Shown here in pieces: positions 8,458 to 42,496 of a stretch of 42,798 nt of DNA; positions within the stretch are counted from its first letter, which is position 1; every line of letters begins with the position of its first letter. Made by a program: the position numbers and the translations under genes. The notes under the pieces are model-generated. The model saw only the letters and a list, made by a program, of their open reading frames with translations, ran no database searches and had not been told where the DNA came from. The DNA lies in IMG/VR virus record IMGVR_UViG_3300045988_177667, positions 1-42,798 of that record. One strand, 5' to 3'. Source of the stretch: a virus.

Positions 8458-11400
8458 ATGGCCGGATATGATCTCGGGACCGCATGGATTCAGATCAGCC
8501 CGTCCGTGCGAGGCCTCGCTCGGAGTATCAATAGCGAAATCAGTAACGTCGATACTGGGCCGGCCGAGAGAAAGATCACATCCGGGCTTGGTGGTGCGTT
8601 CAAATCGGTAGCGAAAGTCGCCGGCGCCGCGCTCGGAGGACTCGCAATCGGCGGAATCGCAGTTGCGTTCGGCGGTGTCGCAAAAGAGGCATTCAATGCT
8701 GCCGACGCCACAATCAAATTCAAGCAAACGCTCGCGTTCGCCGGTAAAAGTGCGGACGAAATCAACGCGCTCACAAAAAGCACACGCTCCTACGCGGACC
8801 GCACGATTTACGAGCTCGACGATATCCAGTCCATTACCGCGCAGCTTGCATCCAACGGCGTAAAGGGCTACGATAAGCTCGCCGAGGCTGCCGGTAACCT
8901 GAACGCTGTTGCTGGTGGAAATGCGCAGACGTTCAAAACGGTCGGTCTCGTTATGACGCAGACTGCGGGCGCCGGAAAACTTACCACCGAGAACTGGAAT
9001 CAGCTTTCCGACGCCATTCCTGGCGCGTCCGGTAAATTGCAGGAAGCCATGAAAAAGAATGGCGCCTACACTGGCAATTTCCGGGAAGCCATGGAAAAAG
9101 GCGAGATCACCGCCGAGGAATTCAACCAAGCAATCCTCGATCTCGGTATGGAGGACGTGGCCATTGAGGCCGCTACATCCACCAAAACCCTGGAAGGCGC
9201 TTGGGGGAATTTCAAAGCGACCCTTGTGACTGGGGCGCAGGAAATCGCCGAAAAAGCACTACCGTGGATCACCGCATCCCTTGACGCCATGAGCAAAGGG
9301 TTCGAAAAAGTATTCAACTGGGTGAGCAATTCATTCATCCCCAGTATTACGAATGCTTTCAACGTTATCCGCAAGGGTGATTTTACGGGCCCGATCTTCT
9401 CGTTCGAAGAAGACTCTAGTTTCGTTGATTTCCTTTTCCGCATGCGTGACGCTGCCGCCGCTGCCGGGGAATGGATCAACAAGACGCTCGTCCCGTCGTT
9501 GAAGAATCTTAAAGATTTGCTTCTGTCCGGTGATTTCACAGGGACGATTTTTGGATTCGACAAAGATTCCGGAATCATTTCCTACATCACCAATGTTCGT
9601 AACAGTTTTGTCGAGCTAGGTAAATTCATTGTCGGGACGCTCGTCCCTGGTATCGCCACGGCGCTCAGCACCATCGCGAACAGCAGCCTCGTCCAATTCA
9701 TGGAGAATCTCACCGTCGCTATTCTCAATAGTAAAGTGGCGGTTTATAGTATTGCGGCTGCGTTTACGGCATGGAAAGCTGTCATGGTCATGTCCTCAAT
9801 GCAGCAATGGTTGAATGACATGGAGGGCGTAGCCGGGGTTGCGGGGCGTGTCACCACGGCCATTAATGCGATGACCGTGGCGAAAGTCAAAGACGTGGTG
9901 GAGACCGCGCAGCTCAACCTCATGTACGCCGGCGAATTCCTGTCAAATATCGCGCGCGCAACGACGCAGATCACGATGCAGGCGGTTGCTTGGGGTAGGG
10001 CCACGGCAATGATGGTCCTCCACAAAACTGCAACAATCGCCTCGACCGCGGCACAGTGGGCATTCAACGCAGCAATGGACGCCAACCCAATCGGCCTCGT
10101 CGTGATCGCTATCGCAGCATTGGTCGCGGCAATCATTGTGGCATGGCAGAACTCCGAAACATTCCGCAACGTCGTCATTTCCTGTTGGGAAGCAATCAAA
10201 ACAGCCGCCGGGGCCGTGGCCGATTGGTTCGCCGCTAACGTATGGCCTCTCATGCAAGTCGCATGGGATGGAATCGTCGCCGGCGCCCAATGGATGTGGG
10301 GCGTCATGGTATCCGTCTGGCAAGGAATGCAGCCCGTTATTCAGGCGGTCATTGATTGGATCGTCGGCACCGCATGGCCCGCGCTCCAGGCGGCATGGGA
10401 CGGAATCGTCGCCGGCGCCCAATGGGTATGGAACGGCATCGTCAACGTCTGGCAGGGAATACAGCCCGTCATTCAAGCTGTCGTCGATTGGATTGTAAAT
10501 ACCGCCTGGCCCAACCTTCAAGCCGCCTGGGACGGTATTTCCGCGGGCGCAATGATCGTTTGGAACGGAATGGTCGCCGCGTGGCAAGGGATCAGCGACA
10601 TAATCCGACCCGTCGTCGACTGGATCGTCAACGTCGCCGCCTTGTATCTCACCACGGCATGGGATGCCATTAGTTGGGGTGTGAGTGCGCTCTGGTCTAC
10701 GATTCAGTGGGCGTGGGACGCTATTTGGGCGGCAATCATGCCCGTCGCCACACAAATCTACAATGATATTTGGCCCATGGTGGTGGGCGCTTTTAACGCG
10801 ATTAAAGACACCGCCTCCATGATGTGGGCCGATATTCAGATCGCGTGGACTGCTATTCAGACCGCAATTCAGCCCGTTGCGGATTGGATTTACAATACGG
10901 TTTGGCCGTGGGTTGTAGGCGCCTTTAATGCGATTAAGGATACGGCCACTAACATGTGGGGCGATATTCAGTCCGCGTGGGCTGCGATTCAGGCTGCTAT
11001 GCAGCCGGTAGTTGAATGGATCTACTATACAGCGTGGCCTTGGGTCGTAGATACTTTCAACACTATCAAGGACGCGGCGTCCAATCTTTGGGGTACGGTT
11101 CAGGCTGCGTGGACCTCTATTCAGGCGGCTATGCAGCCCGTGGTCGAGTGGATTTACTATACGGCCTGGCCCTGGGTCGTCGACACATTCAACACAATTA
11201 AAGATACCGCCTCCGCACTTTGGGGCACCATATCAGCAGCATGGAACGGCATTTGGGCCACCATTCAGCCCGTCGTTGATTGGATCTACAATATTGCATG
11301 GCCATGGGTGGTCGGCGCGTTCAATGCTATTAAAGACACGGCGTCTATTATGTGGGGCTCCCTATCGGCGACGTGGAACGGCATTTGGGCCGTTATGCAG

Positions 11401-13020
11401 CCGGTGGTGAATTGGATTCAAACCTATGCTGCACCTGTTATTAGTGTGGCCTGGGAAATAATCTCTACGGGTGCGAAAATTCTGGGCGGAATCATTGCGT
11501 TCGTATTCGCGTCCATCATCGCTGCGGTCACCATGGGGGTCGCCGTAATTCAAGGCGCAGCCACCACGATCAGCGCAGCCTGGAACACCGTTGTTTCGTG
11601 GACCAGCTGGCTGAAAAACATGGTCGTCTCCGCATGGAACATCCTGAAAGGCGAAATCCAAATCGTTAAAGATTGGATCGCCAACACGCTCGTCCCCGCA
11701 ATCACGAGCGCCTGGGACAGGGTCGTAGCCGCCGCTAACACCATGAAAGACGGCGTTAGGACGGCGTGGGACAAAATCAAGGAAGCCGCAGCTAAGCCCG
11801 TTAACTTCGTTATCGGCACAGTCTACAACAATGGGCTGCGGAAACTCGTTAACGGTATGATGGAGAAACTTTCTCTCGATCTTCGTCTTCCCGAGGCTCC
11901 CACGATTGGCGGGTACGCGTCCGGTGGTGTCCTGCCCGGATACTCCCCGGGCCGTGACATTTACCATTTCGTATCACCCGATGGCGGTGGCCGGCTCGCC
12001 CTTTCCGGCGGAGAAGCAATCATGCGGCCCGAATGGGTGAAAGCTGTCGGCGGCCCTGCAATGGTTAATGCAATGAATCGTGCCGCCGCGCACGGGGACA
12101 GGATTCCCGGCGGCGATGCCGGCTATGCCGCATTCGCCCCGGGCGGTATTTGGGACCCTGTCAAATCAACGGTAGAAAAGGGCGCGTCTGCTGCCCTTAA
12201 TTGGATCACCGGCGCGGCCGACGCGGTATCCTCGATATTCTCCGACCCAATCGGAGCCGTCGAGACTGTCATCAAGGCTCCGGTTCACAAGCTTCTCGAT
12301 TCGTGGGGCGGCGACGGGGCGAAACCATTCTTTGACGCAGGCAAAGCGGGCGTAGATAAAACCATTGACGCGCTCGGCGATTGGATCAAAGATCACATGC
12401 CTGTGGTCAGTGGATTCGGTGGCGGAATCGGTGCAATCGGTGCGGCCGCCGGCGACCTCGTGAATACGGCGCGACGGGCTATAGGTACACCGTATGTTTG
12501 GGGCGGCGTCTCCCCGGGCGGTGGGCTCGATTGTTCTGGTCTCGTTTATTGGGCGCTCAACGCAATGGGCGTTCATGTGCCGCGTCTCACGGCGGCCGGA
12601 TATCAGGCAATGTCATCGCCCGGTAACCCTATGGTTCCCGGTACGCTTCTGTTCTGGGGTTACCCAGCTCACCACGTTGCTATCGCCTCCGGTAACGGCA
12701 TGATGGTTGAGGCGCCGACTTTTGGTATTCCGGTGCGTGAGGTTCCGATCTATGGTGGGCCGTCCGCGGGTAATCTCCGCTACGATAATGGCGGTTTCCT
12801 GCAGCCCGGCCTCTCAACGATCGAAAATAAAACTGGTCGTCCTGAGCCTGTTTTTACGTCGGCCCAGTGGGAGAAAATGGATAAATTGATCAGCCTCCTG
12901 GAGAATCGTGCGCTCGGCCCTGACGTGCTCGAAATTCGGGACGTTGACAATGATCTTGTGGGGCGTATGCAGGTAGAGGCAACGTCGGCCATAGTAGACT
13001 ATGACCGAATGAACCGATGA
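8458..13020 (+). CDS. Tape measure protein with a Trp-rich 44-aa tandem repeats and a C-terminal NlpC/P60-like peptidase domain
   Basis: A 1520-aa ORF after the chaperones with GGAGAGG as its Shine-Dalgarno. It has hydrophobic and repeat-rich segments. The motif GTPYVWGGVSPGGGLDCSGLVYWAL...HHVAIASG is NlpC/P60-like. Confidence 0.9.
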   Translation: MAGYDLGTAWIQISPSVRGLARSINSEISNVDTGPAERKITSGLGGAFKSVAKVAGAALGGLAIGGIAVAFGGVAKEAFNAADATIKFKQTLAFAGKSADEINALTKSTRSYADRTIYELDDIQSITAQLASNGVKGYDKLAEAAGNLNAVAGGNAQTFKTVGLVMTQTAGAGKLTTENWNQLSDAIPGASGKLQEAMKKNGAYTGNFREAMEKGEITAEEFNQAILDLGMEDVAIEAATSTKTLEGAWGNFKATLVTGAQEIAEKALPWITASLDAMSKGFEKVFNWVSNSFIPSITNAFNVIRKGDFTGPIFSFEEDSSFVDFLFRMRDAAAAAGEWINKTLVPSLKNLKDLLLSGDFTGTIFGFDKDSGIISYITNVRNSFVELGKFIVGTLVPGIATALSTIANSSLVQFMENLTVAILNSKVAVYSIAAAFTAWKAVMVMSSMQQWLNDMEGVAGVAGRVTTAINAMTVAKVKDVVETAQLNLMYAGEFLSNIARATTQITMQAVAWGRATAMMVLHKTATIASTAAQWAFNAAMDANPIGLVVIAIAALVAAIIVAWQNSETFRNVVISCWEAIKTAAGAVADWFAANVWPLMQVAWDGIVAGAQWMWGVMVSVWQGMQPVIQAVIDWIVGTAWPALQAAWDGIVAGAQWVWNGIVNVWQGIQPVIQAVVDWIVNTAWPNLQAAWDGISAGAMIVWNGMVAAWQGISDIIRPVVDWIVNVAALYLTTAWDAISWGVSALWSTIQWAWDAIWAAIMPVATQIYNDIWPMVVGAFNAIKDTASMMWADIQIAWTAIQTAIQPVADWIYNTVWPWVVGAFNAIKDTATNMWGDIQSAWAAIQAAMQPVVEWIYYTAWPWVVDTFNTIKDAASNLWGTVQAAWTSIQAAMQPVVEWIYYTAWPWVVDTFNTIKDTASALWGTISAAWNGIWATIQPVVDWIYNIAWPWVVGAFNAIKDTASIMWGSLSATWNGIWAVMQPVVNWIQTYAAPVISVAWEIISTGAKILGGIIAFVFASIIAAVTMGVAVIQGAATTISAAWNTVVSWTSWLKNMVVSAWNILKGEIQIVKDWIANTLVPAITSAWDRVVAAANTMKDGVRTAWDKIKEAAAKPVNFVIGTVYNNGLRKLVNGMMEKLSLDLRLPEAPTIGGYASGGVLPGYSPGRDIYHFVSPDGGGRLALSGGEAIMRPEWVKAVGGPAMVNAMNRAAAHGDRIPGGDAGYAAFAPGGIWDPVKSTVEKGASAALNWITGAADAVSSIFSDPIGAVETVIKAPVHKLLDSWGGDGAKPFFDAGKAGVDKTIDALGDWIKDHMPVVSGFGGGIGAIGAAAGDLVNTARRAIGTPYVWGGVSPGGGLDCSGLVYWALNAMGVHVPRLTAAGYQAMSSPGNPMVPGTLLFWGYPAHHVAIASGNGMMVEAPTFGIPVREVPIYGGPSAGNLRYDNGGFLQPGLSTIENKTGRPEPVFTSAQWEKMDKLISLLENRALGPDVLEIRDVDNDLVGRMQVEATSAIVDYDRMNR
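10261..11450 (+). repeat. About nine in-frame tandem repeats of 132 bp (44 aa) inside the tape measure gene
   Basis: Units begin at 10261, 10393 and 10525 (AWDGIxAGAxxxW...QPVIQAVxDWIVxTAWP). Further units begin at 10711, 10843, 10975, 11107, 11239 and 11371 (AWxxIQxAxQPVxxWIYxTxWPWVVxxFNxIKDTAS). Confidence 0.85.
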
Positions 13021-16857: not shown

Positions 16858-17559
16858 ATGCCTAATACTAGGTGGACCGGCGGCATCGTCCCCACGGTAG
16901 ATGATAATCTCATTGAGGCCTGGGATGCGTATGATGATTCCGCCGGCAGAGTTATGCCAGCGGCGTCCGTAGCCGCGGCACGGGTCATGCTTGCGGCCGC
17001 ACCATCCGGGGCGGTATCGAAAGCGCGCCCCGCAGTTTTCATTATTGACGACATTCTGTACACCGCTGACGGCTCCAAGGCTGGCGACGGGTCATTCAAC
17101 ATTAACCCAGCGAATTCGTTCAGCGGTGTACTTTACCGGCACCGTGATAATACGAACGGCCGTGGACGCCCTACCTCGGATCATGCTACTTACACGTGGG
17201 GTGACGGTATTGTTACCCTACCTATTAAGAGTCTCATGGAGTTCTCGCTTGACGTGTGCGTGAGCATTGCGCATGAGGATTATCATTCCGAGGAGGAGAA
17301 GGATAAGGCTGTCGGCTCGTATTTCTTCGGATTCAAGCTCGACAATAGGGGTATTTGGCAGACCGAGATTCAATACAATCGCACGTTTATGACGCACCAT
17401 ATGCAATGGCGCCTTTCCGTGGAAGCCGGCTCACACAGGGTCGCTTACACTACGGCGGGCAGCTATGGTGCCGACCCGTACTGGCATTACGATGGCGGCG
17501 TTTTCCCGGGCACGGTGTTTACGGTGGCTACCCTTGGCGCGACCCGCGTTGACCTGTAA
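16858..17559 (+). CDS. Tail-tip/fibre-associated protein, function unknown
   Basis: A 233-aa ORF with an AGGAGA Shine-Dalgarno 7 nt upstream. Confidence 0.45.
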   Translation: MPNTRWTGGIVPTVDDNLIEAWDAYDDSAGRVMPAASVAAARVMLAAAPSGAVSKARPAVFIIDDILYTADGSKAGDGSFNINPANSFSGVLYRHRDNTNGRGRPTSDHATYTWGDGIVTLPIKSLMEFSLDVCVSIAHEDYHSEEEKDKAVGSYFFGFKLDNRGIWQTEIQYNRTFMTHHMQWRLSVEAGSHRVAYTTAGSYGADPYWHYDGGVFPGTVFTVATLGATRVDL

Positions 17560-18002: not shown

Positions 18003-18998
18003 ATGGCAAACGTTACTGGGTACACTAAGGCCGGCGTAGATAAGCTGGTCGCCCCGCTGTTCTCTTCAATCTCGCCTTTCGCGGTCGGCGGACACTACTA
18101 CTCCCCCGTCACGTATTTCTGGCCCGATTTCTACAATGAGGGTCAGGCCGGGAAGATTTCGAAGTGGGCCAAGACGCTGGCCTATGGGAATGCGCTCGGC
18201 TATGTGATCATGAATCGTTCCACGGGCGATTGGTCCGCCAAAGACAACGACTTTCTTACGCAGGCGCAGCGTGCCCAGGCGGCCGGGGCAAAGAGGGTTC
18301 TCTGGTATATTCCTACCCGTTATGGTGTCGCGTCGCTCGCTAAGGAGGACGCCGCTAGGAATGGTGTGCCGGACCCGGATAAGTTTACGCGCGAATACAT
18401 TATGCAGCTGTGCGCCAACCTGCGCTCCCAGTACGATGGTCTTTTCCAGGGTGTATTCTTGGACGAGGTAATCAACGGATGGGGCGTCCAGGCGGGACGC
18501 GTTGGTTGGTACGGTGATCTCATCGGCGAAATTCGACACACCTACGGCAAGGATTTCACAATCGCTATCAACCCTGGTAGCAATATTACTGAGGCAGTGT
18601 GCTCGCTCGATTTCGATGTGTGCATGAGCTTTGAGAATACTGCCGCCAAGTATTTGACGGACGACCCTAATAACCCGATTGCGAATGATGTGATGCGGGC
18701 GCAGCCTTCCACCAAGTGGTGGCACGTTATTCATGGGGTTACGAAAGAGAATTTCCGGCAGGTAATCGATCGCGCCGCATCGTTCGGTGTGTCACATTTG
18801 TATGTGACCGACGGCGAGCTGGTGCAGGGCGAGGGCGGCCAGTGGGTTCCTGAGAAGAATCCTTACCAGAATCCTCCGTCGGATTGGATCATGGAGCGCG
18901 TGGTTGCTTGGCATGGCGGCTACCTCGACCTGGCTGAGCGTGTTGCCGCGTTGGAGGCGAAAGCGGCTCCGGCTCCGTCTCCTCAGCCGGGCGCCTGA
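18003..18998 (+). CDS. Spherulation-specific family 4-like protein, a putative glycoside-hydrolase-like polysaccharide depolymerase
   Basis: A 331-aa ORF, the last gene of the tail block. The pattern GYVIMNRSTGDW...RVLWYIPTRYG...GVFLDEV resembles spherulin-4/GH114-like TIM-barrel families as I recall them. Confidence 0.4.
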   Translation: MANVTGYTKAGVDKLVAPLFSSISPFAVGGHYYSPVTYFWPDFYNEGQAGKISKWAKTLAYGNALGYVIMNRSTGDWSAKDNDFLTQAQRAQAAGAKRVLWYIPTRYGVASLAKEDAARNGVPDPDKFTREYIMQLCANLRSQYDGLFQGVFLDEVINGWGVQAGRVGWYGDLIGEIRHTYGKDFTIAINPGSNITEAVCSLDFDVCMSFENTAAKYLTDDPNNPIANDVMRAQPSTKWWHVIHGVTKENFRQVIDRAASFGVSHLYVTDGELVQGEGGQWVPEKNPYQNPPSDWIMERVVAWHGGYLDLAERVAALEAKAAPAPSPQPGA

Positions 18999-18999
18999 G

Positions 19000-19015
19000 T
19001 GTTTCACGTGAAACA
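19000..19015. promoter_or_regulatory. parS: parS-type 16-bp palindrome TGTTTCACGTGAAACA (chromosomal ParB/Spo0J site consensus), copy 1
   Basis: Exact palindrome starting 2 nt after the stop of the last tail gene. Its right half forms the base of the adjacent terminator stem. Confidence 0.8.
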
Positions 19016-19054
19016 TTCCCCCTCACCACAGAAATCGTGGTGAGGGGGAATGTT
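19012..19054. terminator. Terminator hairpin between convergent operons (18-bp stem aacattccccctcaccac/gtggtgagggggaatgtt)
   Basis: Perfect 18-bp inverted repeat with a 7-nt loop. TTTT follows on the + strand. It lies in the 76-bp gap between 18998 (+) and 19075 (-). Confidence 0.7.
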
Positions 19055-19074
19055 TTCGTACCCGACGGAAGAGA

Positions 19075-19542
19075 CTATAGTCCCAGGCGTTGATAGTCTC
19101 CTCCGTGCTCGCGAGCAATATCGTCCAAGACGCCCATGAGGTCGGAGCGTGCATCGTCCTGAACGGTGATAGACGGCGAGTTCAGGATCGAATGAATCGT
19201 ACTGTTGATTTCCCGAAATCGGCGGCCAGCGATTGCGTCACACTCTACACTGTCCCAACGCCGTGCTAGACGGCGCGCAAGATCAGACGTATTCTCTCCG
19301 CTTGTTTCATGGTATACACCTACAACGTTCAATGGCCAACCCCAGACAACCCATTTGCTGAAAGTGCCGCCGTCGTCATTTTCTACGGTGACATCAATCC
19401 CAACGCCCTTATGCTGGTTGTGCCACTTCAGAAGAGCGACCATGTGCGCTTCGTCAATATCACACACGTCGGGCTTCGGAAGCCATAACTGTACAAGGCT
19501 GATCTCTCGCTCGATCTCCAGCATTAGATTATTTGCTGTCAT
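19075..19542 (-). CDS. Hypothetical protein
   Basis: A 155-aa ORF, the last gene of the leftward module. It overlaps the upstream gene by 4 nt. Confidence 0.55.
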   Translation of the reverse strand: MTANNLMLEIEREISLVQLWLPKPDVCDIDEAHMVALLKWHNQHKGVGIDVTVENDDGGTFSKWVVWGWPLNVVGVYHETSGENTSDLARRLARRWDSVECDAIAGRRFREINSTIHSILNSPSITVQDDARSDLMGVLDDIAREHGGDYQRLGL

Positions 19543-23300: not shown

Positions 23301-24809
23301 ATGATAAAATTAAAGCCACCGAAAACCTTTACGAAAGGCGGTGCAAAATTGGCAGATTCCGTCACAGAATATGCTGCGTCGGAAATGAAATATTGGTGCA
23401 CCACAGGCGACTACGGGGGCACCGGTTATGCCCAGGATAACCGGTGGACCTGTTACTGGAATTCCAATGATGCCGGATGGAAAACTGGTCCCGGTGACAT
23501 GGATTGCAGTAGCGGCGTAGCGGGCGCCTACAATATTGCATTCCACAATGTCTGGGGAACCGGCTGGGACGATCCGATCATGTTCCCGCGGACCGGCGAA
23601 ACATGGACAGAAACTCTGAATTCCTTGGCCGCGAATCGCGGTTTCATGGATATCGGGGACACTTGGTACGGGTCTACGCCGTCGGGCGGATTCCATGTCG
23701 GCGACATGGTCCTGAAAACTACCGGAGACGGTGGACATGTCGCAATGTGCGTGCGCGAAGACGATGGCTCATTCAACGCGGGCGACCCTTTGCTCGCTGA
23801 GGCGTGGATTAATGAGAATGGCGAAATTTCTGAAGGGCAGATGGGGGATCAGACCGGCTACGAAACACATGTAGTCCGGTATAGTAGTCACCCGATGACT
23901 GTCGCGAGCTCGTGGTCAACCTGTATCCGTTTCGGAAAGCGAACCGATTCCGATAACGGGCACGAGTCCGCCGGCTCGTACCGCCTTTCTTCAATTCAGG
24001 AGGCCGTTCTCAGGGCCGCCGATGCGGAGAGTTGTCCGTGGTGGGCCGCTCTGGCGTGCCTGTGGATGGAGACCGGCGAGCGTGGCGCAAACATTTACGG
24101 GCACGACGCCGGAGGCGCTGGCCCGCACGGCGAGGAGGTGACCGAGGAGAATTTCCGCGAATTCCTTGCGGCAATTCGAGACGGTGAAAACTCGAACGGT
24201 GTCGGGCCACTGCAGATCACGTATCCGGGCTATTTCTTTGATGATCCGGATCGTGAATGGTGGATGCCTGAAAAGTCGGCTGAGGTCGGCTGCCGTATTC
24301 TTCGTGATCTCATTAACGCGGAGGGCGATTCTTATGAGGCCTTGAAGCGTGTCGGGTCGCGGTATAATTCAGGAAACCCGTATGACGCGTATGAGTCTTA
24401 TGGGATTCTTTTCAGTAATCGTTGCAAGTCTTGGTATGATTATGGCCGCCCGTCTGGGGGTGCCGGAGAGGAATTTTGGGATATGAGCGAGGGCGTTGAT
24501 CTGCTCAGGGAGATTCGCGATCTTTTCCGTAGTGGAAAGGCGGGGGACCACTTTGCGGGCGACATGAATTGGTATGCCAAGGCGACCTACGAGGAGGTTA
24601 AGTCTATTCACGCGTCTGTGGATCAGATTCTGCATTCTGTGACTCCGGGTCAGGAGAATGTTCGTGAGGCGGGCGCGATCTATGGTGCCGTGAACGAGAT
24701 TCGTAAGGCAGTGTCTACGCCGTCGTCTTTGCAGGCGCATGATGGTGTCGCGGAGTCTCCGACTCCGGAGTCTCCCGCCCCGGCTCCGGCTCCGGAGCAG
24801 AATTCCTGA
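23301..24809 (+). CDS. Endolysin with an N-terminal Cys/His peptidase-like domain and a lytic-transglycosylase-like domain
   Basis: The product is 502 aa from the ATG at 23301. DCSSGVAGAY...GHVAMCV looks like a Cys-His peptidase signature. WMETGERGANIYGHD looks like a transglycosylase Glu motif. The domain assignment is from memory of endolysin families. Confidence 0.65.
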   Translation: MIKLKPPKTFTKGGAKLADSVTEYAASEMKYWCTTGDYGGTGYAQDNRWTCYWNSNDAGWKTGPGDMDCSSGVAGAYNIAFHNVWGTGWDDPIMFPRTGETWTETLNSLAANRGFMDIGDTWYGSTPSGGFHVGDMVLKTTGDGGHVAMCVREDDGSFNAGDPLLAEAWINENGEISEGQMGDQTGYETHVVRYSSHPMTVASSWSTCIRFGKRTDSDNGHESAGSYRLSSIQEAVLRAADAESCPWWAALACLWMETGERGANIYGHDAGGAGPHGEEVTEENFREFLAAIRDGENSNGVGPLQITYPGYFFDDPDREWWMPEKSAEVGCRILRDLINAEGDSYEALKRVGSRYNSGNPYDAYESYGILFSNRCKSWYDYGRPSGGAGEEFWDMSEGVDLLREIRDLFRSGKAGDHFAGDMNWYAKATYEEVKSIHASVDQILHSVTPGQENVREAGAIYGAVNEIRKAVSTPSSLQAHDGVAESPTPESPAPAPAPEQNS

Positions 24810-24935
24810 CGCAGCATATTGGCATTTATCGTAGCCTGTTCATTCGCTATTATGCTGAGTGTCGTTCCACGATAGATGTGACATGCGGGGAGCTTCACTC
24901 TCTTCCCTCTCCGCGATCTCCTGTGGTAGTGGTAG

Positions 24936-24987
24936 AGCAAGTCTCCGGACGGTCAATGAAAGATCGTCCGGAGACTTGCTTTTGTTG
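24936..24987 (+). terminator. Intrinsic terminator after the endolysin gene
   Basis: Perfect 16-bp stem agcaagtctccggacg/cgtccggagacttgct followed by TTTGTTG. Confidence 0.75.
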
Positions 24988-25867: not shown

Positions 25868-26101
25868 ATGTTTACTCCTGAGGTCCGCAAGGCGCTTTAC
25901 GCCCTGCTCACTGCTGTTCTCGGCGTTTTTGCGGCGTTCAATGTTATTTCCGCTGACCAGGCGTCTCAGTACGCTGACGCTGCGACCCAGATTGTCGGTG
26001 CTCTGACTCTGGCTCTGGCCACGTATCACACTCGCCCCGGCGCGGCCGCTGGCCGTCACGCCGCCGGTGAGGGTGAGGCTACTGAGGACAAGGTCGCCTG
26101 A
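25868..26101 (+). CDS. Holin (putative)
   Basis: The 77-aa product has two hydrophobic helices (ALYALLTAVLGVFAAFNVI and IVGALTLALATY) and a charged C-terminal tail. It is the last gene of the lysis cassette. Confidence 0.55.
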   Translation: MFTPEVRKALYALLTAVLGVFAAFNVISADQASQYADAATQIVGALTLALATYHTRPGAAAGRHAAGEGEATEDKVA

Positions 26102-26116
26102 CCTCCGTCATTCATA

Positions 26117-26166
26117 GAAACATTACTGCCCCCTACCGAACAAGTGGTAGGGGGCAGTAATGTTTC
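26117..26166. terminator. Terminator hairpin between convergent operons (21-bp stem gaaacattactgccccctacc/ggtagggggcagtaatgtttc)
   Basis: Perfect inverted repeat with an 8-nt loop. The right arm contains the left half of parS copy 2, and the left arm begins with a GAAACA half-site. Confidence 0.7.
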
Positions 26167-26176
26167 ACGTGAAACA
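26161..26176. promoter_or_regulatory. parS: parS-type palindrome TGTTTCACGTGAAACA, copy 2
   Basis: Exact 16-mer that overlaps the terminator stem. Confidence 0.8.
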
Positions 26177-26183
26177 CGGGGCA

Positions 26184-26199
26184 TGTTTCACGTGAAACA
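26184..26199. promoter_or_regulatory. parS: parS-type palindrome TGTTTCACGTGAAACA, copy 3 (an 18-bp palindrome at 26183..26200)
   Basis: Exact 16-mer 23 bp centre-to-centre from copy 2. It ends 1-2 nt before the stop codon of the RuvC-like gene. Confidence 0.8.
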
Positions 26200-26200
26200 T

Positions 26201-26686
26201 TCACCGTCGCTCCACGTCGTCTCCGACGATGCGTGCGATCACACCCTTGTCGTGACGTTTAGTGACTGCCCACAGGAAAAGATGACGCCCCGCATCGCGC
26301 GCGTCGTCCGCATCGGGCTGACCTACACTGGCTCCTGTGGGCCAAAAACCAAGTAGCTTCAAAACATGGTCGGGCATGGTTGTTTTCGCCATTGCGGGAG
26401 TCTGCCAGACGATATCTCCGATCTCCCATTCCAGTACAGCGTTGATTTTTACTGGGGTGAGGTCTGCAAGAAAATTGTTGCCCGGTCGAAGATCAAACCG
26501 TTCACACACGACAATGTCTGGGGCGAATTCGTTTCGTGTGGCCAGAATGTCATAGACGCTGGCAGTCCAATGCTCATACTTGAACTGTTGAACATGAATG
26601 ATCGAGAGTTCGCGGTCGTCGTGAAAGTCTCCGACGACGATTCCTGTTGATTTGCCGGGATCAACGGCCATCACCCGCTGCATCAT
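26201..26686 (-). CDS. RuvC-like Holliday junction resolvase
   Basis: The 161-aa product has an N-terminal VMAVDPGKSTGIVVG and later acidic residues (VVCERFD, DADDARDA) typical of RuvC-fold resolvases. Confidence 0.65.
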   Translation of the reverse strand: MMQRVMAVDPGKSTGIVVGDFHDDRELSIIHVQQFKYEHWTASVYDILATRNEFAPDIVVCERFDLRPGNNFLADLTPVKINAVLEWEIGDIVWQTPAMAKTTMPDHVLKLLGFWPTGASVGQPDADDARDAGRHLFLWAVTKRHDKGVIARIVGDDVERR

Positions 26687-27744
26687 ATCTTTTCCTCTTT
26701 CCTCTTTCGTAGGCTTCGCCGCGACTTGTTCACGTTGACAATACTTTTCGTAGTGTCTGTGCGCACGCCGTCTACTTCAAGCCACAATGTGTCAGGCGCC
26801 ACCGGCTCCCCGCGACCTTTCTTCAGAGCCCACGGTGTGCCCGGTTCGCTCGGAAAAGGCAGATGTTTGTAGCACCATATTGCGCAATCCTGCGTGGAAT
26901 CAAAACGAAACTCCTCTTTCGGCACGTATCTTTTCATGTCGTAAATGCGTCGCATGAGTTTCGGGATAAGCCATTCCGGTACTTCTCTGTACATGCGAAT
27001 TGACGGGCTGCTGCACGGGCAGACCACAGTCCTACCGCCACTGAAATGCGAGACACGAAGCCACTTGTCTTCCCCGCAATTCACGCAACGCATGTGGAAA
27101 TGCTTATGACCATCTCTCATAATCTTCCATTCGGGGGATACTACTTCCCACTGCTCGAAGCGTCGCCCCACCATTTCCTGCTGCACGCCAGTCGTCGTCT
27201 TATAGGTTTTCTTGCCGTGGAGAATAAGACGATCGTGAGCTTCCCTCCTGCTCTCGGCGCGCACTACTGAAATTTCGCCGGGGCGAAATACGCCGTTCTC
27301 TGTGGCAAATTCCCAATCGAACACAACCGATGGGTTGAATTCGTTGTAGCACCATTCGATAGCCGACGACATGCCGTCGAACTCGAAATTATCTACACCG
27401 TTCCGCTCCCGCCATTTCCAAATCTTAAGACGAATATCATTGTAGGAGCGATACGGCATAAGCGTGCCATTCACCTCACAGTACTGGTTCGAGTACGGTG
27501 CGTCCGATGGACGATTCAGCACTATGTCGAGATTGCAGGGGGCGATCGGTTTAGTAATGTCGGGGCGTGTGAATCGCCACTTATTGTGCTCGGGGACTTC
27601 CAGATACTTGAAACACCATTCAATGGCGGCGTCAATCGAGGGAAATTGGAAGTTCTCGCTACTGGTGCGGTAGCTGAGCTGGGTGAGTCGGTTGGCGACT
27701 ATCCTGTACTGTTCGTATGATGGTTGCGTCATTTGCGTGTTCAT
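26683..27744 (-). CDS. Protein with three AIEWCY-type repeats and a zinc-ribbon-like Cys cluster, function unknown
   Basis: ATG at 27744 follows an intergenic hairpin and a GAGAAGAGAG Shine-Dalgarno. Three repeats are present (ENFQFPSIDAAIEWCFKYL, DNFEFDGMSSAIEWCYNEF, EEFRFDSTQDCAIWCYKHL). A Cys cluster CVNCGEDKW...VVCPCS is also present. Confidence 0.5.
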   Translation of the reverse strand: MNTQMTQPSYEQYRIVANRLTQLSYRTSSENFQFPSIDAAIEWCFKYLEVPEHNKWRFTRPDITKPIAPCNLDIVLNRPSDAPYSNQYCEVNGTLMPYRSYNDIRLKIWKWRERNGVDNFEFDGMSSAIEWCYNEFNPSVVFDWEFATENGVFRPGEISVVRAESRREAHDRLILHGKKTYKTTTGVQQEMVGRRFEQWEVVSPEWKIMRDGHKHFHMRCVNCGEDKWLRVSHFSGGRTVVCPCSSPSIRMYREVPEWLIPKLMRRIYDMKRYVPKEEFRFDSTQDCAIWCYKHLPFPSEPGTPWALKKGRGEPVAPDTLWLEVDGVRTDTTKSIVNVNKSRRSLRKRKEEKI

Positions 27745-39250: not shown

Positions 39251-39595
39251 AGTGCGTCTTAGATGGAGGAAAGGCGGTGTGTGATGGGTGTGTGATGTCG
39301 ACCACCGCACAGTGTCGATCTCTCACAGTTTCCGTTAACCTTCTGTTTACTTTGTTCACCTCCCGTTCACTTTCTACGCATGTGGGTTGTTTGCTAGCAA
39401 CTGGTTTTCTAGGACAAAAACACCCGTTTGTGTTACTACAATGTTGGTGCGTGTCGTCACACTTTCTGCCTTTGTAGCAAGGTTTTGCGCCAGAGAGTTC
39501 CTTGTGATTGCAACGTTTAGTCCCCGTTTGTGATTGTTTTGTTGGCAGTGTTTGTTGCTGGGACTTTAGTCTATATGCTACACTCGAGTAGACGA

Positions 39596-39675
39596 ATCGT
39601 CGAAGACGATCGGCGGCGCAGCCGCTGAGGAGCCCTAGCGACGCAAGCGAGCGTCAGCGCCGCCGGGTGTTTTCG
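39596..39675 (+). other. GC-rich compound hairpin followed by TTTT (orphan terminator or small structured RNA candidate)
   Basis: It contains atcgtc-gaa-gacgat. A 9-bp stem cggcggcgc/gcgccgccg then encloses a 37-nt GC-rich interior. ggtgTTTTcg follows. Confidence 0.35.
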
Positions 39676-39726
39676 AAGAGCTCGCCACTGTGTTGGGCCC
39701 AACCTATACTCTTAAAAGAGTACTAG

Positions 39727-39765
39727 AATTAGACACTGTCTAGCTGTGTTAGACAGTGTCTAATT
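39727..39765. promoter_or_regulatory. Paired palindromic operator-like sites AATTAGACAcTGTCTA / TAGACAgTGTCTAATT
   Basis: Two 13-bp palindromes (TAGACAnTGTCTA) lie 20 bp centre-to-centre. Together they form a 16-bp inverted repeat with a 7-bp spacer. Confidence 0.5.
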
Positions 39766-39910
39766 AGGGAATATGTGTTGTAACGTAATTAGTGTTCAAT
39801 GGTGAACATGGTGATCGTTAACAGTGAACAGTGTGTGGTGAGGACAACAATGCTGCTGTAGTGGTACACAACATACACACCTATTAAGTACACAAACCCA
39901 GAAACAATAA

Positions 39911-39970
39911 GGCGCGTGTTGTGTTACGTGCGTGCTCGCAGAGCTGCGCGCGCACTACACAACACACGCC
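39911..39970. repeat. Structured hairpin element, copy A (conserved 35-nt core, 14-bp outer stem)
   Basis: The sequence is ggcgcgtgttgtgt-tacgtgcgtgctcgcagagctgcgcgcgcact-acacaacacacgcc. The core matches copy B at 33 of 35 positions. Confidence 0.6.
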
Positions 39971-40047
39971 AACCCACAAACAAAGAGAAGAAGAAAAGCG
40001 AGGAGAGGAGGAAGAAGAAGGAAGAGGAGGAAGCAACAGAGAGAGTA

Positions 40048-40105
40048 GTGTTAGACGGTGGAGGCGCTCGTCTCGCTGACGCTGCGACGCGCCACCACCT
40101 AACAC
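40048..40105. repeat. Third imperfect GTGTT...AACAC hairpin
   Basis: gtgttag/ctaacac, ggtgg/ccacc and ggcgc/gcgcc are paired segments separated by bulges. Confidence 0.4.
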
Positions 40106-40139
40106 GACACAAAAAGAAGAGCAAAGAAGAAGAAACACG

Positions 40140-40484
40140 GTGAGCAGAACAAGCACAAAAGAACACAAACAATTCAGAAAACAAGTACTCGCCAGAGCAC
40201 AACAAATGGGCATCACACACTGCCCAGCATGCGGAACCAAACTCCAATACAACAACAACGGACAACGCAAACCCAACAGTGCCGAAGCCGACCACATAAT
40301 CCCAGCCTCGTTAGGCGGAACCAACCACCCAGACAACGGGCGAGTCCTCTGCGCCAAATGCAACAGCAGACGCGGCAACGGACGAGGAGGAAAAGGAAGA
40401 GCACGCCACTACCAGAAAAACGAAAACGAACGAGACAGACTACCCGTAGCCGTCATGCCCACCGAACACACCAACACATGGTGA
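40140..40484 (+). CDS. HNH endonuclease (terminase-associated type, judged by position)
   Basis: The 114-aa product reads HCPACGTKL...EADHIIPASLGGTNHPDNGRVLCAKCNSRRGN, the classic HNH with Cys pairs. It has a GTG start. It is located upstream of terS/terL, as in HK97-like cos phages. Confidence 0.8.
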   Translation: MSRTSTKEHKQFRKQVLARAQQMGITHCPACGTKLQYNNNGQRKPNSAEADHIIPASLGGTNHPDNGRVLCAKCNSRRGNGRGGKGRARHYQKNENERDRLPVAVMPTEHTNTW

Positions 40485-40580
40485 ATCACCCACCGCCATT
40501 CCAGCAGCAGAAGAAAGACGGGACACAGAGAAAGCGAGGAGAAGAAGAGACAGAGAAGAAGAAACAAAGGAAGACGCAAT

Positions 40581-40637
40581 GGTGTTCGGGGATAACGTGC
40601 GTGCTCGCAGGGCTGCGCGCGCACTACCCCGAACACC
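40581..40637. repeat. Structured hairpin element, copy B
   Basis: The sequence is ggtgttcgggg-ataacgtgcgtgctcgcagggctgcgcgcgcacta-ccccgaacacc. The perfect 11-bp outer stem differs in sequence from copy A but keeps complementarity. Confidence 0.6.
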
Positions 40638-41532
40638 AACACACAAAGGAAGAAGAAGAGGAAGAAGAAGAGAATACGGGAACAGTGAACTAAGACAAGA
40701 CACCACACACCCACCACCACCACCATTCCACAATACGCAACACAATGCGACACGACATGCACCACTACCACCGCACACGTTACAACATGACTGATGTGCA
40801 GACAGTAAACACCGCACGCCCTTCCACCCAACACAAACCATCACCGCCATCCCACAATGACACACCCCCTGACACAAAGACACCACCCTAAACCAACAAT
40901 GCTGTGACAGCAAACACACAGATGGGGAGAAGGGAAGAGGAAAGAGAAGAATGAGACACAGTCTCACCACAATGCCGCCCCCGCACCACCGCACTTCCTC
41001 CACCCCGCAACACAAGAGGAACAAGACAACACAAGAGAGACGGGAACAACATGAAGGGGATGACCCAACCCAACACAGGACACCACAGCACACACCACCC
41101 CCCGCCATTCAACGCGGCCACCACACAAACAGGAGAGGGACACCGATACAAATGGGAGGGGACACCAACATCAGACAGGGAGGTCAGTACTGCAACACCC
41201 GCCCTTCACTCACCATGCCACCCCCATCCACCATGCCACCCCACCATCCACACTGCCCCCACCCACCACCAATGCGAGGGGGGAGCAGACAGAGGATACC
41301 CCACCACAGACGAACACACACCCACACACACACACCGCACACCCGGCAAGACACAGCACACGACACGACCGCAGTACCGATGAGTACTGCACCGGGATAG
41401 GCGGGGCACGGGCCACACGCACTGACCGGGCAGGACAGCAGCAGCACACACCACCGCCATTCCACACACCACACACCAACGAGGATGGACACCATCCACT
41501 GTCTCACCTCACACTGTTCGCGTTCATACAAC

Positions 41533-41650
41533 CAACGAACGATCATGATCAACGACGATCAATGATCATCGTTCAATGATTGATCAACGAACAATGAACG
41601 ATGAACATGATGATGATCAATGATGATCAACAACGAACATGATCAACATG
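41533..41650. repeat. Iteron-like array rich in GATC (TGATCAAYRA and CAACGAAC words)
   Basis: Eight GATC sites lie at 41541, 41547, 41557, 41564, 41582, 41615, 41625 and 41641. (T/C)GATCAA occurs six times and CAACGAAC three times. Confidence 0.6.
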
Positions 41651-41766
41651 ATGATGAACACACGACGATGATGTGATGCATGACATGCATACCAATACCA
41701 TGCACCATGCATGGTGCCAACGCACGCCACAAGGCAATCGCATAACGCACAAACGCACAAACGCAT

Positions 41767-41811
41767 AAAAATGCATAAAAACAAAAGAAATGTTACAAAA
41801 ACATGCAAAAA
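41767..41811. other. Phased A-tracts (predicted intrinsically bent DNA)
   Basis: A5 runs begin at 41767, 41777, 41797 and 41807, with A4/A3 runs at 41783 and 41788. This gives a 10-bp phasing. Confidence 0.5.
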
Positions 41812-42044
41812 CATTCAAGGCACAATCCAACGATGGCGTTCAAAAAAACCATGGCAACAAAACGAGACGAACAAAAAGGGGGCCCCAAACCCGTAAGGGA
41901 TCCCTTAAAGTAGGACCCGCATCACAAAACAAGACAGGGAACGGAACAAACGAGACGCACACCACACAATTTATGTGATGGGGGCCACTCCCCCTCCCCC
42001 ATCCGGCCGCGAACACCCCGAAGGTCTGCCCATCCCTCCCTGCT

Positions 42045-42171
42045 TGTGGAAAACCCTGTGGATAACTCCAGTAACCCATGCCACAATGTGATCGCCATCA
42101 TGTGGAAAACTCCCAAACCTGTGGAAAACCCTGTGGATAACTTTCTAGCTTGTGGATAACCCTGTGGAAAA
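42045..42171 (-). promoter_or_regulatory. Cluster of seven co-oriented DnaA-box-like 9-mers (TTATCCACA x3 and TTTTCCACA x4 on the - strand)
   Basis: TGTGGATAA occurs at 42057, 42132 and 42151. TGTGGAAAA occurs at 42045, 42101, 42120 and 42163. Six of these form three 22-bp units with 12-bp box spacing. Confidence 0.6.
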
Positions 42172-42214: not shown

Positions 42215-42496
42215 ATGACAACCCACACAAACACCACAATCACCATATACGAACCCAACAGCCCCGCACCCATCACAGACGCCACAAACACAGGCAACCC
42301 AACACTCATACGCCAAGCACTCGCACACAAAATCGCCACCGTCATAGACGACCCCAGAACAGGCGACACAGCACTCACAAAACTCACCGCACAACTCATA
42401 CAAATCACAGACCAACTCGCCACCACACAAAACGAAAACACACAAACACACACCCCCGACATTCCAAACGAAACACAAACCTGGGACGGCATCTAA
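42215..42496 (+). CDS. Candidate small terminase subunit (called by position only)
   Basis: A 93-aa Thr/Gln-rich ORF that ends 4 nt before the terL ATG. Confidence 0.35.
   Translation: MTTHTNTTITIYEPNSPAPITDATNTGNPTLIRQALAHKIATVIDDPRTGDTALTKLTAQLIQITDQLATTQNENTQTHTPDIPNETQTWDGI

What the first reader, a model, noticed from the sequence alone, without database searches (positions are those of the whole stretch)
19000..19015. Perfect chromosomal-type parS site placed 2 nt after the last tail gene
TGTTTCACGTGAAACA is the consensus ParB/Spo0J centromere site of bacterial chromosomes. It is found in Bacillus, Streptomyces, Mycobacterium, Corynebacterium and many others. It is the reason tiny ORFs reading MFHVKH are often mis-annotated, and such an ORF appears here at 18792..19016. 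A given 16-mer palindrome is expected about 1e-5 times by chance in 43 kb, yet this genome has three exact copies. A phage that carries host-type parS but no recognisable parA or parB suggests it engages the host ParB-CTP clamp.
Basis: partly seen in the sequence, partly recalled or inferred. Interest (0 to 1): 0.85.

Follow-up and report, generated by a model that had tools for sequence, protein, structure and literature searches.

The report
Host-type parS centromere sites on phage
A virus of mouth bacteria carries three perfectly conserved copies of the DNA "handle" that bacteria use to pull their own chromosomes apart, but none of the proteins that grip it, so it most likely borrows the host's chromosome-segregation protein, a trick so far shown only for phage phi29 of spore-forming Bacillus.

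Summary
TGTTTCACGTGAAACA occurs exactly at 19000, 26161 and 26184; no shuffle of the window gives three matches.

The window is a complete 42.7-kb siphovirus genome from human oral metagenomes. Its nearest relatives are Actinomyces/Schaalia phages and prophages. The sites lie in the genome's only two convergent gene junctions, each against a strong bidirectional terminator hairpin.

About 60 relatives share 86-88% nucleotide identity. In them the 14-nt core at the first junction never varies, while 64% of flanking columns do. The hairpin stems show compensatory changes and the palindrome shows none. Selection therefore acts on a DNA-binding site, not on an RNA structure.

Pfam finds no ParA, ParB, integrase or CI-type repressor among 68 ORFs.

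The idea is not new. Virulent phage phi29 carries five host-type parS sites that host Spo0J uses to move the phage genome into the prespore. One phi29 site has the same placement: just after the last late gene and just before the bidirectional terminator.

This is a new member of that kind, in a different phage family and host phylum, and probably in a host that does not sporulate.

ParB binding and its benefit remain untested. The most likely benefit is inheritance or positioning of the unintegrated phage genome.

The parts
19000..19015 (.). parS-1 at junction J1. Exact 16-bp palindrome TGTTTCACGTGAAACA, 1 nt after the stop codon of the last rightward late gene.
   Evidence: Exact match. The 14-nt core is present at this position in 61 of 61 related IMG/VR loci. 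It has 0 of 14 variable columns against 119 of 187 in the flanks, Fisher p=1.7e-6.
19010..19056 (.). J1 bidirectional terminator-type hairpin. 20-bp stem GAAACATTCCCCCTCACCAC / GTGGTGAGGGGGAATGTTTT with a 7-nt loop. The stem takes in the right arm of parS-1.
   Evidence: RNA folds of both strands give -41.5 and -44.4 kcal/mol, z -5.4 and -6.3. Three stem pairs carry compensatory double changes across 62 sequences and the loop varies freely.
19051..19059 (.). Decayed parS remnant TGTTTTCGT on the far side of the J1 hairpin.
   Evidence: In relatives L126, L162 and L169 this position holds a full parS core; it is the exact 16-mer in L126 and L162 and GTTTCACGTGAAAC followed by G in L169.
26117..26166 (.). 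J2 bidirectional terminator-type hairpin. 22-bp stem and 6-nt loop. Its 3' arm overlaps the first 6 nt of parS-2.
   Evidence: RNA folds give -59.5 and -62.4 kcal/mol, z -8.8. Relatives show compensatory changes in the stem base: ACAT/ATGT, ACAC/GTGT, ACGT/ACGT, ATAT/ATAT.
26161..26176 (.). parS-2 at junction J2, hairpin-proximal. Exact 16-mer.
   Evidence: It is conserved in relatives.
26184..26199 (.). parS-3 at J2, 7 nt from parS-2. It ends 1 nt before the stop codon of the last leftward replication-block gene.
   Evidence: Of 55 relatives, 44 keep two intact cores, 8 keep one and 3 keep none exact; one of those three has the accepted variant GTTCCACGTGAAAC. The spacer between cores varies from 8 to 12 nt and in sequence.
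18003..18998 (+). Last gene of the rightward late (structural) block. 331-aa Spherulin4-family protein.
   Evidence: Pfam PF12138, E 1e-14. Called as a gene in assemblies that encode the identical protein.
19075..19542 (-). Last gene of the leftward block B (22710 to 19075). It converges on J1. 155 aa, no family match.
25868..26101 (+). Holin-like last gene of the rightward lysis block. It converges on J2.
   Evidence: Pfam Phage_holin_9. PHROG holin families.
26201..26686 (-). Last gene of the leftward replication block. 161 aa, phrog_1981, weak RuvC-like match.

Best explanation
The three 16-mers are working centromere-like sites for the host's own ParB protein, carried by a non-integrating, apparently virulent siphovirus that has no partition genes.

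Proposed mechanism:
1. After injection and circularisation, host ParB dimers recognise the sites (inferred).
2. ParB binds CTP, closes as a clamp and slides onto neighbouring DNA. This builds a partition complex over the central roughly 19-26 kb of the phage genome (inferred from established ParB biochemistry).
3. The complex couples the phage DNA to the host ParA and pole-anchoring machinery and/or to SMC. The phage genome is then positioned and inherited like a chromosomal origin region when lytic growth is delayed, for example in slow-growing plaque biofilm (inferred by analogy with phi29).

The placement has a plain rationale. The sites sit between convergent operons against bidirectional terminators, which keeps them out of coding and promoter DNA. 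The TGTTTC/GAAACA arms also double as extensions of the terminator stems and as their U-rich flanks (shown anatomically; the function is inferred).
For: Shown directly:
- Three exact matches to the consensus, far beyond chance.
- The sites occupy the only two convergent junctions of the genome.
- The 14-nt core at J1 is invariant in 61 of 61 relatives, although those genomes are only 86-88% identical to the window.
- At J2 the tandem pair is kept in 44 of 55 relatives while the spacer changes in length and sequence.
- The adjacent hairpins covary, but the palindrome never changes. Its outermost base varies without compensation, as expected for a protein-binding site with a 14-nt core.
- Three relatives carry a fourth parS core on the far side of the J1 hairpin.
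- No ParB, ParA, integrase or repressor family is found among 68 ORFs.
- Every near-full-length related contig is 41-43.4 kb with no host flanks, and many start at the same base. No copy was found in 185,579 representative genomes.

From the literature:
- Actinobacterial ParB sites have this same sequence, and a chromosomal par operon together with a single parS from the same genome stabilises otherwise unstable plasmids (PMC7022226).
- phi29 has five parS sites, and Spo0J helps segregate its genome into the prespore (PMC2731898).

Verified here in phi29:
- Four exact and one one-mismatch site are present.
- The site at 17243 lies 1 nt after the gene 16 stop and 3 nt before the annotated bidirectional terminator.

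Survey of IMG/VR:
- A control palindrome of the same composition occurs in 39 contigs, all single-copy.
Against: - No binding data exist and the host is not identified.
- The host assignment rests on 49-59% protein identity to Actinomyces/Schaalia phage and prophage proteins, on 55% GC and on the oral source.
- Conservation is seen only within one genus-level cluster. The next relatives have no parS: LC001, L243-L245 and the Actinomycetaceae prophages.
- A minority of relatives have lost or mutated one or both J2 copies, so each copy is dispensable to some degree.
- The phi29 benefit, spore entrapment, cannot apply if the host does not sporulate. The proposed benefit here has no direct support.
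- phi29-like phages of non-sporulating hosts (Cp-1, P68) lack parS.
- A lytic phage that makes hundreds of genome copies does not obviously need partition.
Confidence: 0.68

Rival explanations
1. The same binding happens but for a different purpose: host takeover. Replicating phage genomes, each with three or four high-affinity sites, draw ParB (and through it SMC or ParA) away from the host origin. This disturbs chromosome segregation and division, or recruits SMC to organise or resolve phage replication products. Inheritance of a quiescent genome is not the point.
For: - Host chromosomes carry only a few sites, 3 to 21 in the actinobacteria listed in PMC7022226. About 100 phage copies would outnumber them many-fold.
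- The phage looks purely lytic, with no integrase or repressor.
- Sites are clustered in tandem.
Against: - ParB is non-essential in the actinobacteria listed, and parB deletion gives only partial segregation defects (PMC7022226). Titration would therefore give the phage little obvious gain.
- The only tested precedent, phi29, uses the sites for segregation of the phage genome.
- Nothing in the sequence tells this apart from the main explanation.
Confidence: 0.15
2. The palindrome is the operator of a phage-encoded DNA-binding protein that is not a recognisable ParB. A candidate is the 353-aa ORFan one gene away from J2. That protein has three FxF(x)S..AIxWC-type repeats and a CxxC...CxC zinc ribbon. 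On this reading the identity with parS is coincidental, or reflects a phage protein that also targets host parS.
For: - An uncharacterised and probably nucleic-acid-binding protein sits at 26683-27741, next to the tandem sites.
- Many phage ORFs here have no family assignment.
Against: - A 14-16-nt exact match to a near-universal host site, present in 3-4 copies, is very unlikely unless the binder is a ParB. No ParB-like N-terminal domain is found.
- That ORFan is one of the more variable genes, only 69% identical in L323, whose tandem parS pair is intact.
- The structure model is poor (pLDDT 50) and has no Foldseek match, so there is no positive evidence that it binds DNA.
- The sites lie at terminators, not promoters, which is an odd place for an operator.
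Confidence: 0.08
3. The palindromes act only at the RNA or transcription level. They would be small extra hairpins or U-rich flanks that are part of the bidirectional terminators or of mRNA 3'-end stabilisers, with no protein partner.
For: - The outer arm of each hairpin-proximal site is part of the long terminator stem.
- All four 3' flanks of the two hairpins read AATGTTT(C/T).
Against: - On its own the 16-mer folds weakly: -3.9 kcal/mol, z -1.9, and 17 of 200 shuffles fold as well.
- The central CACGTG and the whole 14-mer are invariant, with no compensatory variation. The true stems beside them covary.
- parS-3 is not adjacent to a hairpin.
- A terminator has no need to match the ParB consensus at every position.
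Confidence: 0.05

Closest known systems
parS sites of Bacillus phage phi29 used by host Spo0J (Meijer et al. 2005, as summarised in PMC2731898)
   Same: - A virulent phage with no parA, parB or integrase.
- Several copies of the host chromosomal parS consensus; phi29 has 4 exact and 1 near-exact.
- The host ParB homologue acts on the phage genome.
- One site lies directly after the stop codon of the last late gene and directly before the bidirectional terminator at the convergent junction: phi29 17243 against the terminator at 17262-17301, and here 19000 against the hairpin at 19010-19056.
   Different: - phi29 is a 19-kb protein-primed podovirus of a sporulating Bacillota host. Its parS role is tied to trapping the genome in the prespore, together with Spo0A boxes.
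- This phage is a 42.7-kb cos-type siphovirus with Actinomycetaceae-like structural genes from the human mouth, where hosts are not expected to sporulate.
- All sites here are intergenic, whereas three of the phi29 sites lie inside genes.
- One locus here is a tandem pair.
- The half-site variant differs: TTTC here, TTCC in phi29.
Phage- and plasmid-encoded ParABS partition cassettes (P1, N15, extrachromosomal mycobacteriophage prophages; PMC7157519 and my own knowledge of Dedrick et al. 2016)
   Same: Centromere-like repeats on a non-integrating phage genome. They lie near the middle of the genome, after the structural genes, and presumably serve inheritance of an episome.
   Different: Those elements encode their own ParA and ParB and use private, element-specific parS sequences. 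Here no par genes exist and the site is the host chromosomal consensus.
SGI1 hijacking the ParABS system of its IncC helper plasmid (PMC10954446, seen)
   Same: A mobile element carries only the cis-acting centromere and parasitises partition proteins encoded elsewhere in the cell.
   Different: The hijacked proteins belong to another mobile element, not to the chromosome. The element is an integrative island, not a phage.
Chromosomal parS clusters near oriC, and plasmid stabilisation by chromosomal par systems (reviewed in PMC7022226)
   Same: Identical sequence. [quoted passage not shown]
   Different: The sites here are on a viral genome rather than near a chromosomal origin. The plasmid result was obtained with the par operon supplied alongside the site, whereas here the proteins would have to come from the host chromosome.

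Membership tests
Chromosomal-type parS (ParB/Spo0J binding site) | Matches the 16-bp palindromic consensus tGTTNCACGTGAAACa | tested here: met
   Three exact copies of TGTTTCACGTGAAACA. The consensus is taken from PMC7022226.
Chromosomal-type parS (ParB/Spo0J binding site) | Sequence-specific binding by ParB and CTP-dependent clamp loading | not testable with these tools
   This needs EMSA or ChIP with the host protein, and the host is not identified.
Chromosomal-type parS (ParB/Spo0J binding site) | Kept by selection as a DNA sequence rather than drifting like its flanks | tested here: met
   At J1, 0 of 14 columns vary against 119 of 187 in the flanks, in 60 unique sequences at about 87% ANI. 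At J2, 44 of 55 relatives keep both copies.
Chromosomal-type parS (ParB/Spo0J binding site) | Lies on the replicon that encodes the cognate ParB, near its origin | tested here: not met
   No ParBc or ParA family in the window. The sites are on a phage genome.
phi29-type host-ParB-exploiting parS on a virulent phage | The phage lacks integrase, repressor and its own parAB | tested here: met
   Pfam scan of 68 ORFs. All related full-length contigs are unit length with no host flanks. No copy was found in representative genomes.
phi29-type host-ParB-exploiting parS on a virulent phage | Multiple copies of the host's own chromosomal parS consensus | tested here: inconclusive
   Three to four copies of the general consensus are present. 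The host's own parS could not be read because the host is unidentified. Actinobacterial examples in the literature are identical.
phi29-type host-ParB-exploiting parS on a virulent phage | Host forms endospores and the sites serve prespore entrapment of the phage genome | tested here: inconclusive
   The nearest portal and capsid relatives are Actinomyces/Schaalia phage and prophages, and the source is the human mouth. This points to a non-sporulating actinobacterium, but only by inference.
phi29-type host-ParB-exploiting parS on a virulent phage | Companion sites for a second host regulator (Spo0A boxes in phi29) | tested here: inconclusive
   No Spo0A-box search was made. A conserved cluster of seven DnaA-box-consensus 9-mers lies at 42045-42171. 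These could equally be terminase-binding repeats next to the cos end.
Self-encoded phage or plasmid ParABS cassette | parA and parB genes adjacent to the centromere repeats | tested here: not met
   The neighbours of the sites are a Spherulin4-family gene, a 155-aa ORFan, a holin and a 161-aa phrog_1981 protein.

The most novel reading that the evidence does not exclude
Carrying host-type parS would be a general strategy of virulent phages that is independent of sporulation. By mimicking the origin region of the host chromosome, an unintegrated phage genome would be actively positioned and inherited by the host ParABS/SMC machinery during a carrier or pseudolysogenic state in slowly growing biofilm hosts. 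In this phage the mimicry would be two-fold: parS for ParB, plus a conserved array of DnaA boxes next to the genome end and the late promoter. That would parallel phi29's pairing of parS with Spo0A boxes.
Probability: 0.3. Interest if true: 0.75.

Novelty: new member of a known kind. Interest (0 to 1): 0.55.

Why it matters
If host ParB does load on this phage, the phi29 strategy is not a peculiarity of spore-formers. It would be a way for lytic phages to persist and be inherited in dividing cells without integrating. That bears on how "virulent" phages survive in dense, slow-growing communities such as dental plaque, and on why lytic phage genomes turn up in bacterial cultures and assemblies.

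The system is also easy to test. The sites are intergenic and can be scrambled without touching any gene. The phage cluster is abundant in public oral metagenomes.

For annotation, the finding explains the spurious MFHVKH-type ORFs. It also offers a simple sequence marker for this behaviour in viral contigs.

Tried and rejected
1. Looked for a phage-encoded ParB or ParA.
- Pfam on 68 ORFs gave nothing. NCBIfam and PHROGs gave nothing either.
The probe was never validated, so this counts for little.

2. Tried to characterise the 353-aa ORFan beside J2 as a possible site binder.
- Only close homologues were found among 5.8 billion proteins.
- There are few distant homologues and they have no Pfam domains.
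- No PDB sequence hit.
- The AlphaFold model is poor, with pLDDT 50, and Foldseek found nothing at E<=0.001.
- The protein remains unresolved.

3. Host identification.
- No megablast hit in INPHARED.
- A genome-contig scan with the Spherulin4 gene found nothing.
- A portal-profile scan found only 49-57% identical prophage portals in Actinomyces, Schaalia, Timonella and a Cutibacterium MAG.
- The endolysin has no informative phage relatives.
- No CRISPR-spacer search was possible.

4. Looked for deeper conservation. The next relatives lack parS: L243-L247, LC001 and the Actinomycetaceae prophages. The trait cannot be traced beyond this cluster.

5. The simple terminator scanner does not flag the two hairpins. 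I rely instead on folding and covariation.

6. CACGTG itself is not unusual in the genome: 10 observed against about 12 expected. A restriction-site explanation was therefore dropped.

7. Livny et al. 2007 could not be read.

8. Literature searches found no report of host-type parS on actinobacteriophages.

Full report
**1. Observation.**
TGTTTCACGTGAAACA occurs exactly three times, at 19000-19015, 26161-26176 and 26184-26199. There is no further match even at three mismatches. Dinucleotide-preserving shuffles give a mean of 0.22 matches at that tolerance, and none of 100 reaches three. The first site begins one base after the TGA (18996-18998) of a 331-aa Spherulin4-family gene. It is an artefact of the palindrome.

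**2. What the window is.**
The two ends of the window repeat 55 nt, so the unit genome is 42,743 bp. GC content is about 55%.

The gene content is that of a siphovirus:
- HNH endonuclease
- small and large terminase
- SPP1-type portal
- HK97-fold capsid
- 1520-aa tape measure protein
- tail genes
- ELLD endolysin and holins
- a replication block with a DUF3987 primase-helicase, SNF2 helicase, exonuclease, AAA_24 and DUF669

Assemblies that encode the identical protein come from human oral metagenomes, project PRJEB6997. Nothing in the INPHARED collection is close at the DNA level. The nearest portal and capsid proteins (55-59% identity) belong to Actinomyces phage LC001, which infects Schaalia odontolytica. 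Portals 49-57% identical occur in prophages of Actinomyces, Schaalia and Timonella. The host is therefore probably an oral member of the Actinomycetales. This is an inference.

**3. Anatomy.**
The genome has four transcription blocks:
- rightward from about 40 kb, through the window end, to 18998 (packaging and structure)
- leftward from 22710 to 19075 (dCTP deaminase, a DUF3310 protein and ORFans)
- rightward from about 22.7 kb to 26101 (lysis)
- leftward from about 39.3 kb to 26201 (replication)

Only two junctions are convergent, and the parS sites lie exactly there.

Each junction holds a very stable hairpin. Stems are 20 and 22 bp, and z-scores run from -5.4 to -8.8 on both strands. At J1 the order is stop codon, parS, hairpin, decayed half-site. 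At J2 it is stop codon, hairpin, parS, 7 nt, parS, stop codon of the opposing gene.

The arm of the parS next to each hairpin forms the base of the stem (GAAACAUU...AAUGUUUC). All four 3' flanks of the two hairpins read AATGTTT(C/T). The sites are therefore physically interlocked with what look like bidirectional terminators.

**4. Conservation.**
Scans of IMG/VR with the two flanking genes returned about 60 relatives each. Most are 41-43.4-kb contigs. They are only 86-88% identical to the window in DNA over the central 20 kb.

At J1 the 14-nt core GTTTCACGTGAAAC is present at the same place in 61 of 61 loci. In 60 unique sequences none of its 14 columns varies, against 119 of 187 flanking columns (Fisher p=1.7e-6). 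The first base of the 16-mer does vary (T, C or G) without a matching change at the last base.

The hairpin loop varies freely, and three stem pairs show compensatory double changes. Three relatives have a second full parS core on the far side of the J1 hairpin.

At J2, 44 of 55 relatives keep two intact cores, 8 keep one and 3 keep none exact. One of those three carries GTTCCACGTGAAAC, an accepted parS variant. The spacer between the two cores ranges from 8 to 12 nt and differs in sequence.

This pattern means selection for a specific double-stranded DNA sequence, not for RNA pairing. More distant relatives have no parS: L243-L247, LC001 and the Actinomycetaceae prophages. The trait is confined to this cluster.

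**5. No partner in the phage.**
Pfam scans of 68 ORFs find no ParB N-terminal domain, no ParA-type ATPase, no integrase or recombinase and no CI-type repressor (partial scans). The phage was not found in one genome for each of 185,579 species. No related contig carries host flanks. At least eleven independent contigs begin at the same base, window 42027, which points to defined virion DNA ends. Everything fits a non-integrating phage that is probably virulent.

**6. Known precedent.**
A control palindrome with the centre swapped (TGTTTCAGCTGAAACA) occurs in 39 contigs, never twice in one.

Pfam and tblastn showed that 25 of the 120 parS contigs are phi29-like podoviruses. That led to the literature. 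[quoted passage not shown]

I verified this in the phi29 sequence. Four sites read TGTTTCACGTGGAACA and a fifth has one mismatch. The site at 17243 starts one base after the stop codon of gene 16 and ends three bases before the annotated bidirectional rho-independent terminator. That is the same arrangement as J1 here. The phi29-like phages Cp-1 (Streptococcus), P68 (Staphylococcus) and GA-1 have none.

**7. Interpretation.**
The best-supported reading is that these are functional host-ParB loading sites on a phage that has no partition genes of its own, a second and independent instance of the phi29 strategy.

What is shown:
- sequence identity with the consensus
- copy number far beyond chance
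- placement at the two convergent junctions
- purifying selection on the DNA sequence
- absence of par genes
- the phi29 parallel, including the placement

What is inferred:
- that the host ParB binds
- that CTP-dependent clamps spread over the central part of the genome
- that this couples the phage DNA to the ParA, pole-anchoring or SMC machinery
- that the benefit is positioning or inheritance of an unintegrated genome when lysis is delayed

The main rival keeps the binding but makes the benefit host takeover by ParB titration or SMC recruitment. Weaker rivals are an operator for an unknown phage protein and a purely RNA-level terminator element. The covariation contrast and the exact match to the consensus argue against both.

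**8. Novelty and score.**
The concept has been published for phi29 since 2005, so this is a new member of a known kind, not a new kind. Three things are new:
- the phage family (cos-type siphovirus) and the host phylum (Actinomycetota)
- the probable absence of sporulation, which removes the only known rationale
- the strength of the population-level evidence

I score interest at 0.55.

**9. Side observations.**
The most notable is a conserved array of seven exact DnaA-box-consensus 9-mers (TTWTCCACA) at 42045-42171. It starts 18 nt inside the inferred left genome end and lies upstream of the small-terminase gene. The boxes could be host DnaA sites or terminase-binding repeats.

Noticed in passing
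window 42045-42171: Seven exact matches to the DnaA-box consensus TTWTCCACA lie within 130 nt. All have the same orientation and most are in pairs 12 nt apart. Only one other exact match exists in the rest of the genome. Most relatives with a complete upstream region keep 5-8 boxes. The boxes could be host DnaA sites (origin, late-promoter control or DnaA titration) or cosB-like terminase-binding repeats.
   Followed up: partly
window about 42026/42027: At least eleven independent IMG/VR contigs start at or within 4 nt of window coordinate 42027. This indicates a fixed physical genome end (cos) about 190 nt upstream of the small-terminase gene (42215-42496, phrog_1459) and just left of the DnaA-box-like array. 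An HNH endonuclease lies at 40140-40484.
   Followed up: partly
window 39500-42000 (+ strand): This stretch is strongly A+C-rich and T-poor (AT skew 0.59 at 40-42 kb). It has purine-rich GAAGAA repeats, a CCACCGCCATTCCA motif repeated six times, and an AT-rich TGATCA-repeat stretch at 41530-41670. Few convincing ORFs are present. Its function is unknown.
   Followed up: no
window 39727-39765: A perfect 16-nt inverted repeat, AATTAGACACTGTCTA / TAGACAGTGTCTAATT, with a 7-nt spacer. It sits in the divergent region between the replication block and the packaging block and is a candidate operator.
   Followed up: no
L126 7909, L162 11043, L169 11049: Three relatives carry a fourth parS core directly after the J1 hairpin, at the position where the window has only the decayed TGTTTTCGT. 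It is the exact 16-mer in L126 and L162. In those genomes the terminator is flanked by parS on both sides.
   Followed up: yes
window 26683-27741 (-): A 353-aa ORFan one gene from the tandem parS. It contains three FxF(x)S..AIxWC(F/Y)-type repeats and a CxxC...CxC zinc ribbon. Only close homologues exist in public data, and it is 69% identical in one otherwise 86.5%-identical relative. No fold could be assigned.
   Followed up: partly
L001-L120 (IMG/VR), e.g. L006, L013, L047, L065, L070, L106: At least 25 of the 120 viral contigs that hold the exact parS 16-mer are phi29-like podoviruses. Many have 2-4 copies, including tandem pairs 24-34 nt apart. The phi29 trait therefore appears widespread among uncultured picoviruses.
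   Followed up: partly
L021, L061, L073, L023, L042: Contigs that are not phi29-like, with about 50-54% GC, carry 2-5 exact parS copies. L021 and L061 have five copies each within about 0.8-0.9 kb of apparently non-coding DNA. L023, from an HMP sample, has four exact copies plus an adjacent TGTTCCACGTGAAACT. Their nature (phage, phage-plasmid or contaminating chromosome) was not determined.
   Followed up: no
window 10255-11417: Tandem 132-nt (44-aa) repeats inside the tape measure gene, in two arrays of about 2.6 and 3.2 copies at 73-77% identity.
   Followed up: no
window 24935-24981 (+): A 20-bp perfect-stem hairpin followed by a T-rich tail. It lies about 125 nt after the endolysin gene (stop codon at 24809) and inside the lysis block. 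It looks like an internal terminator or attenuator.
   Followed up: no
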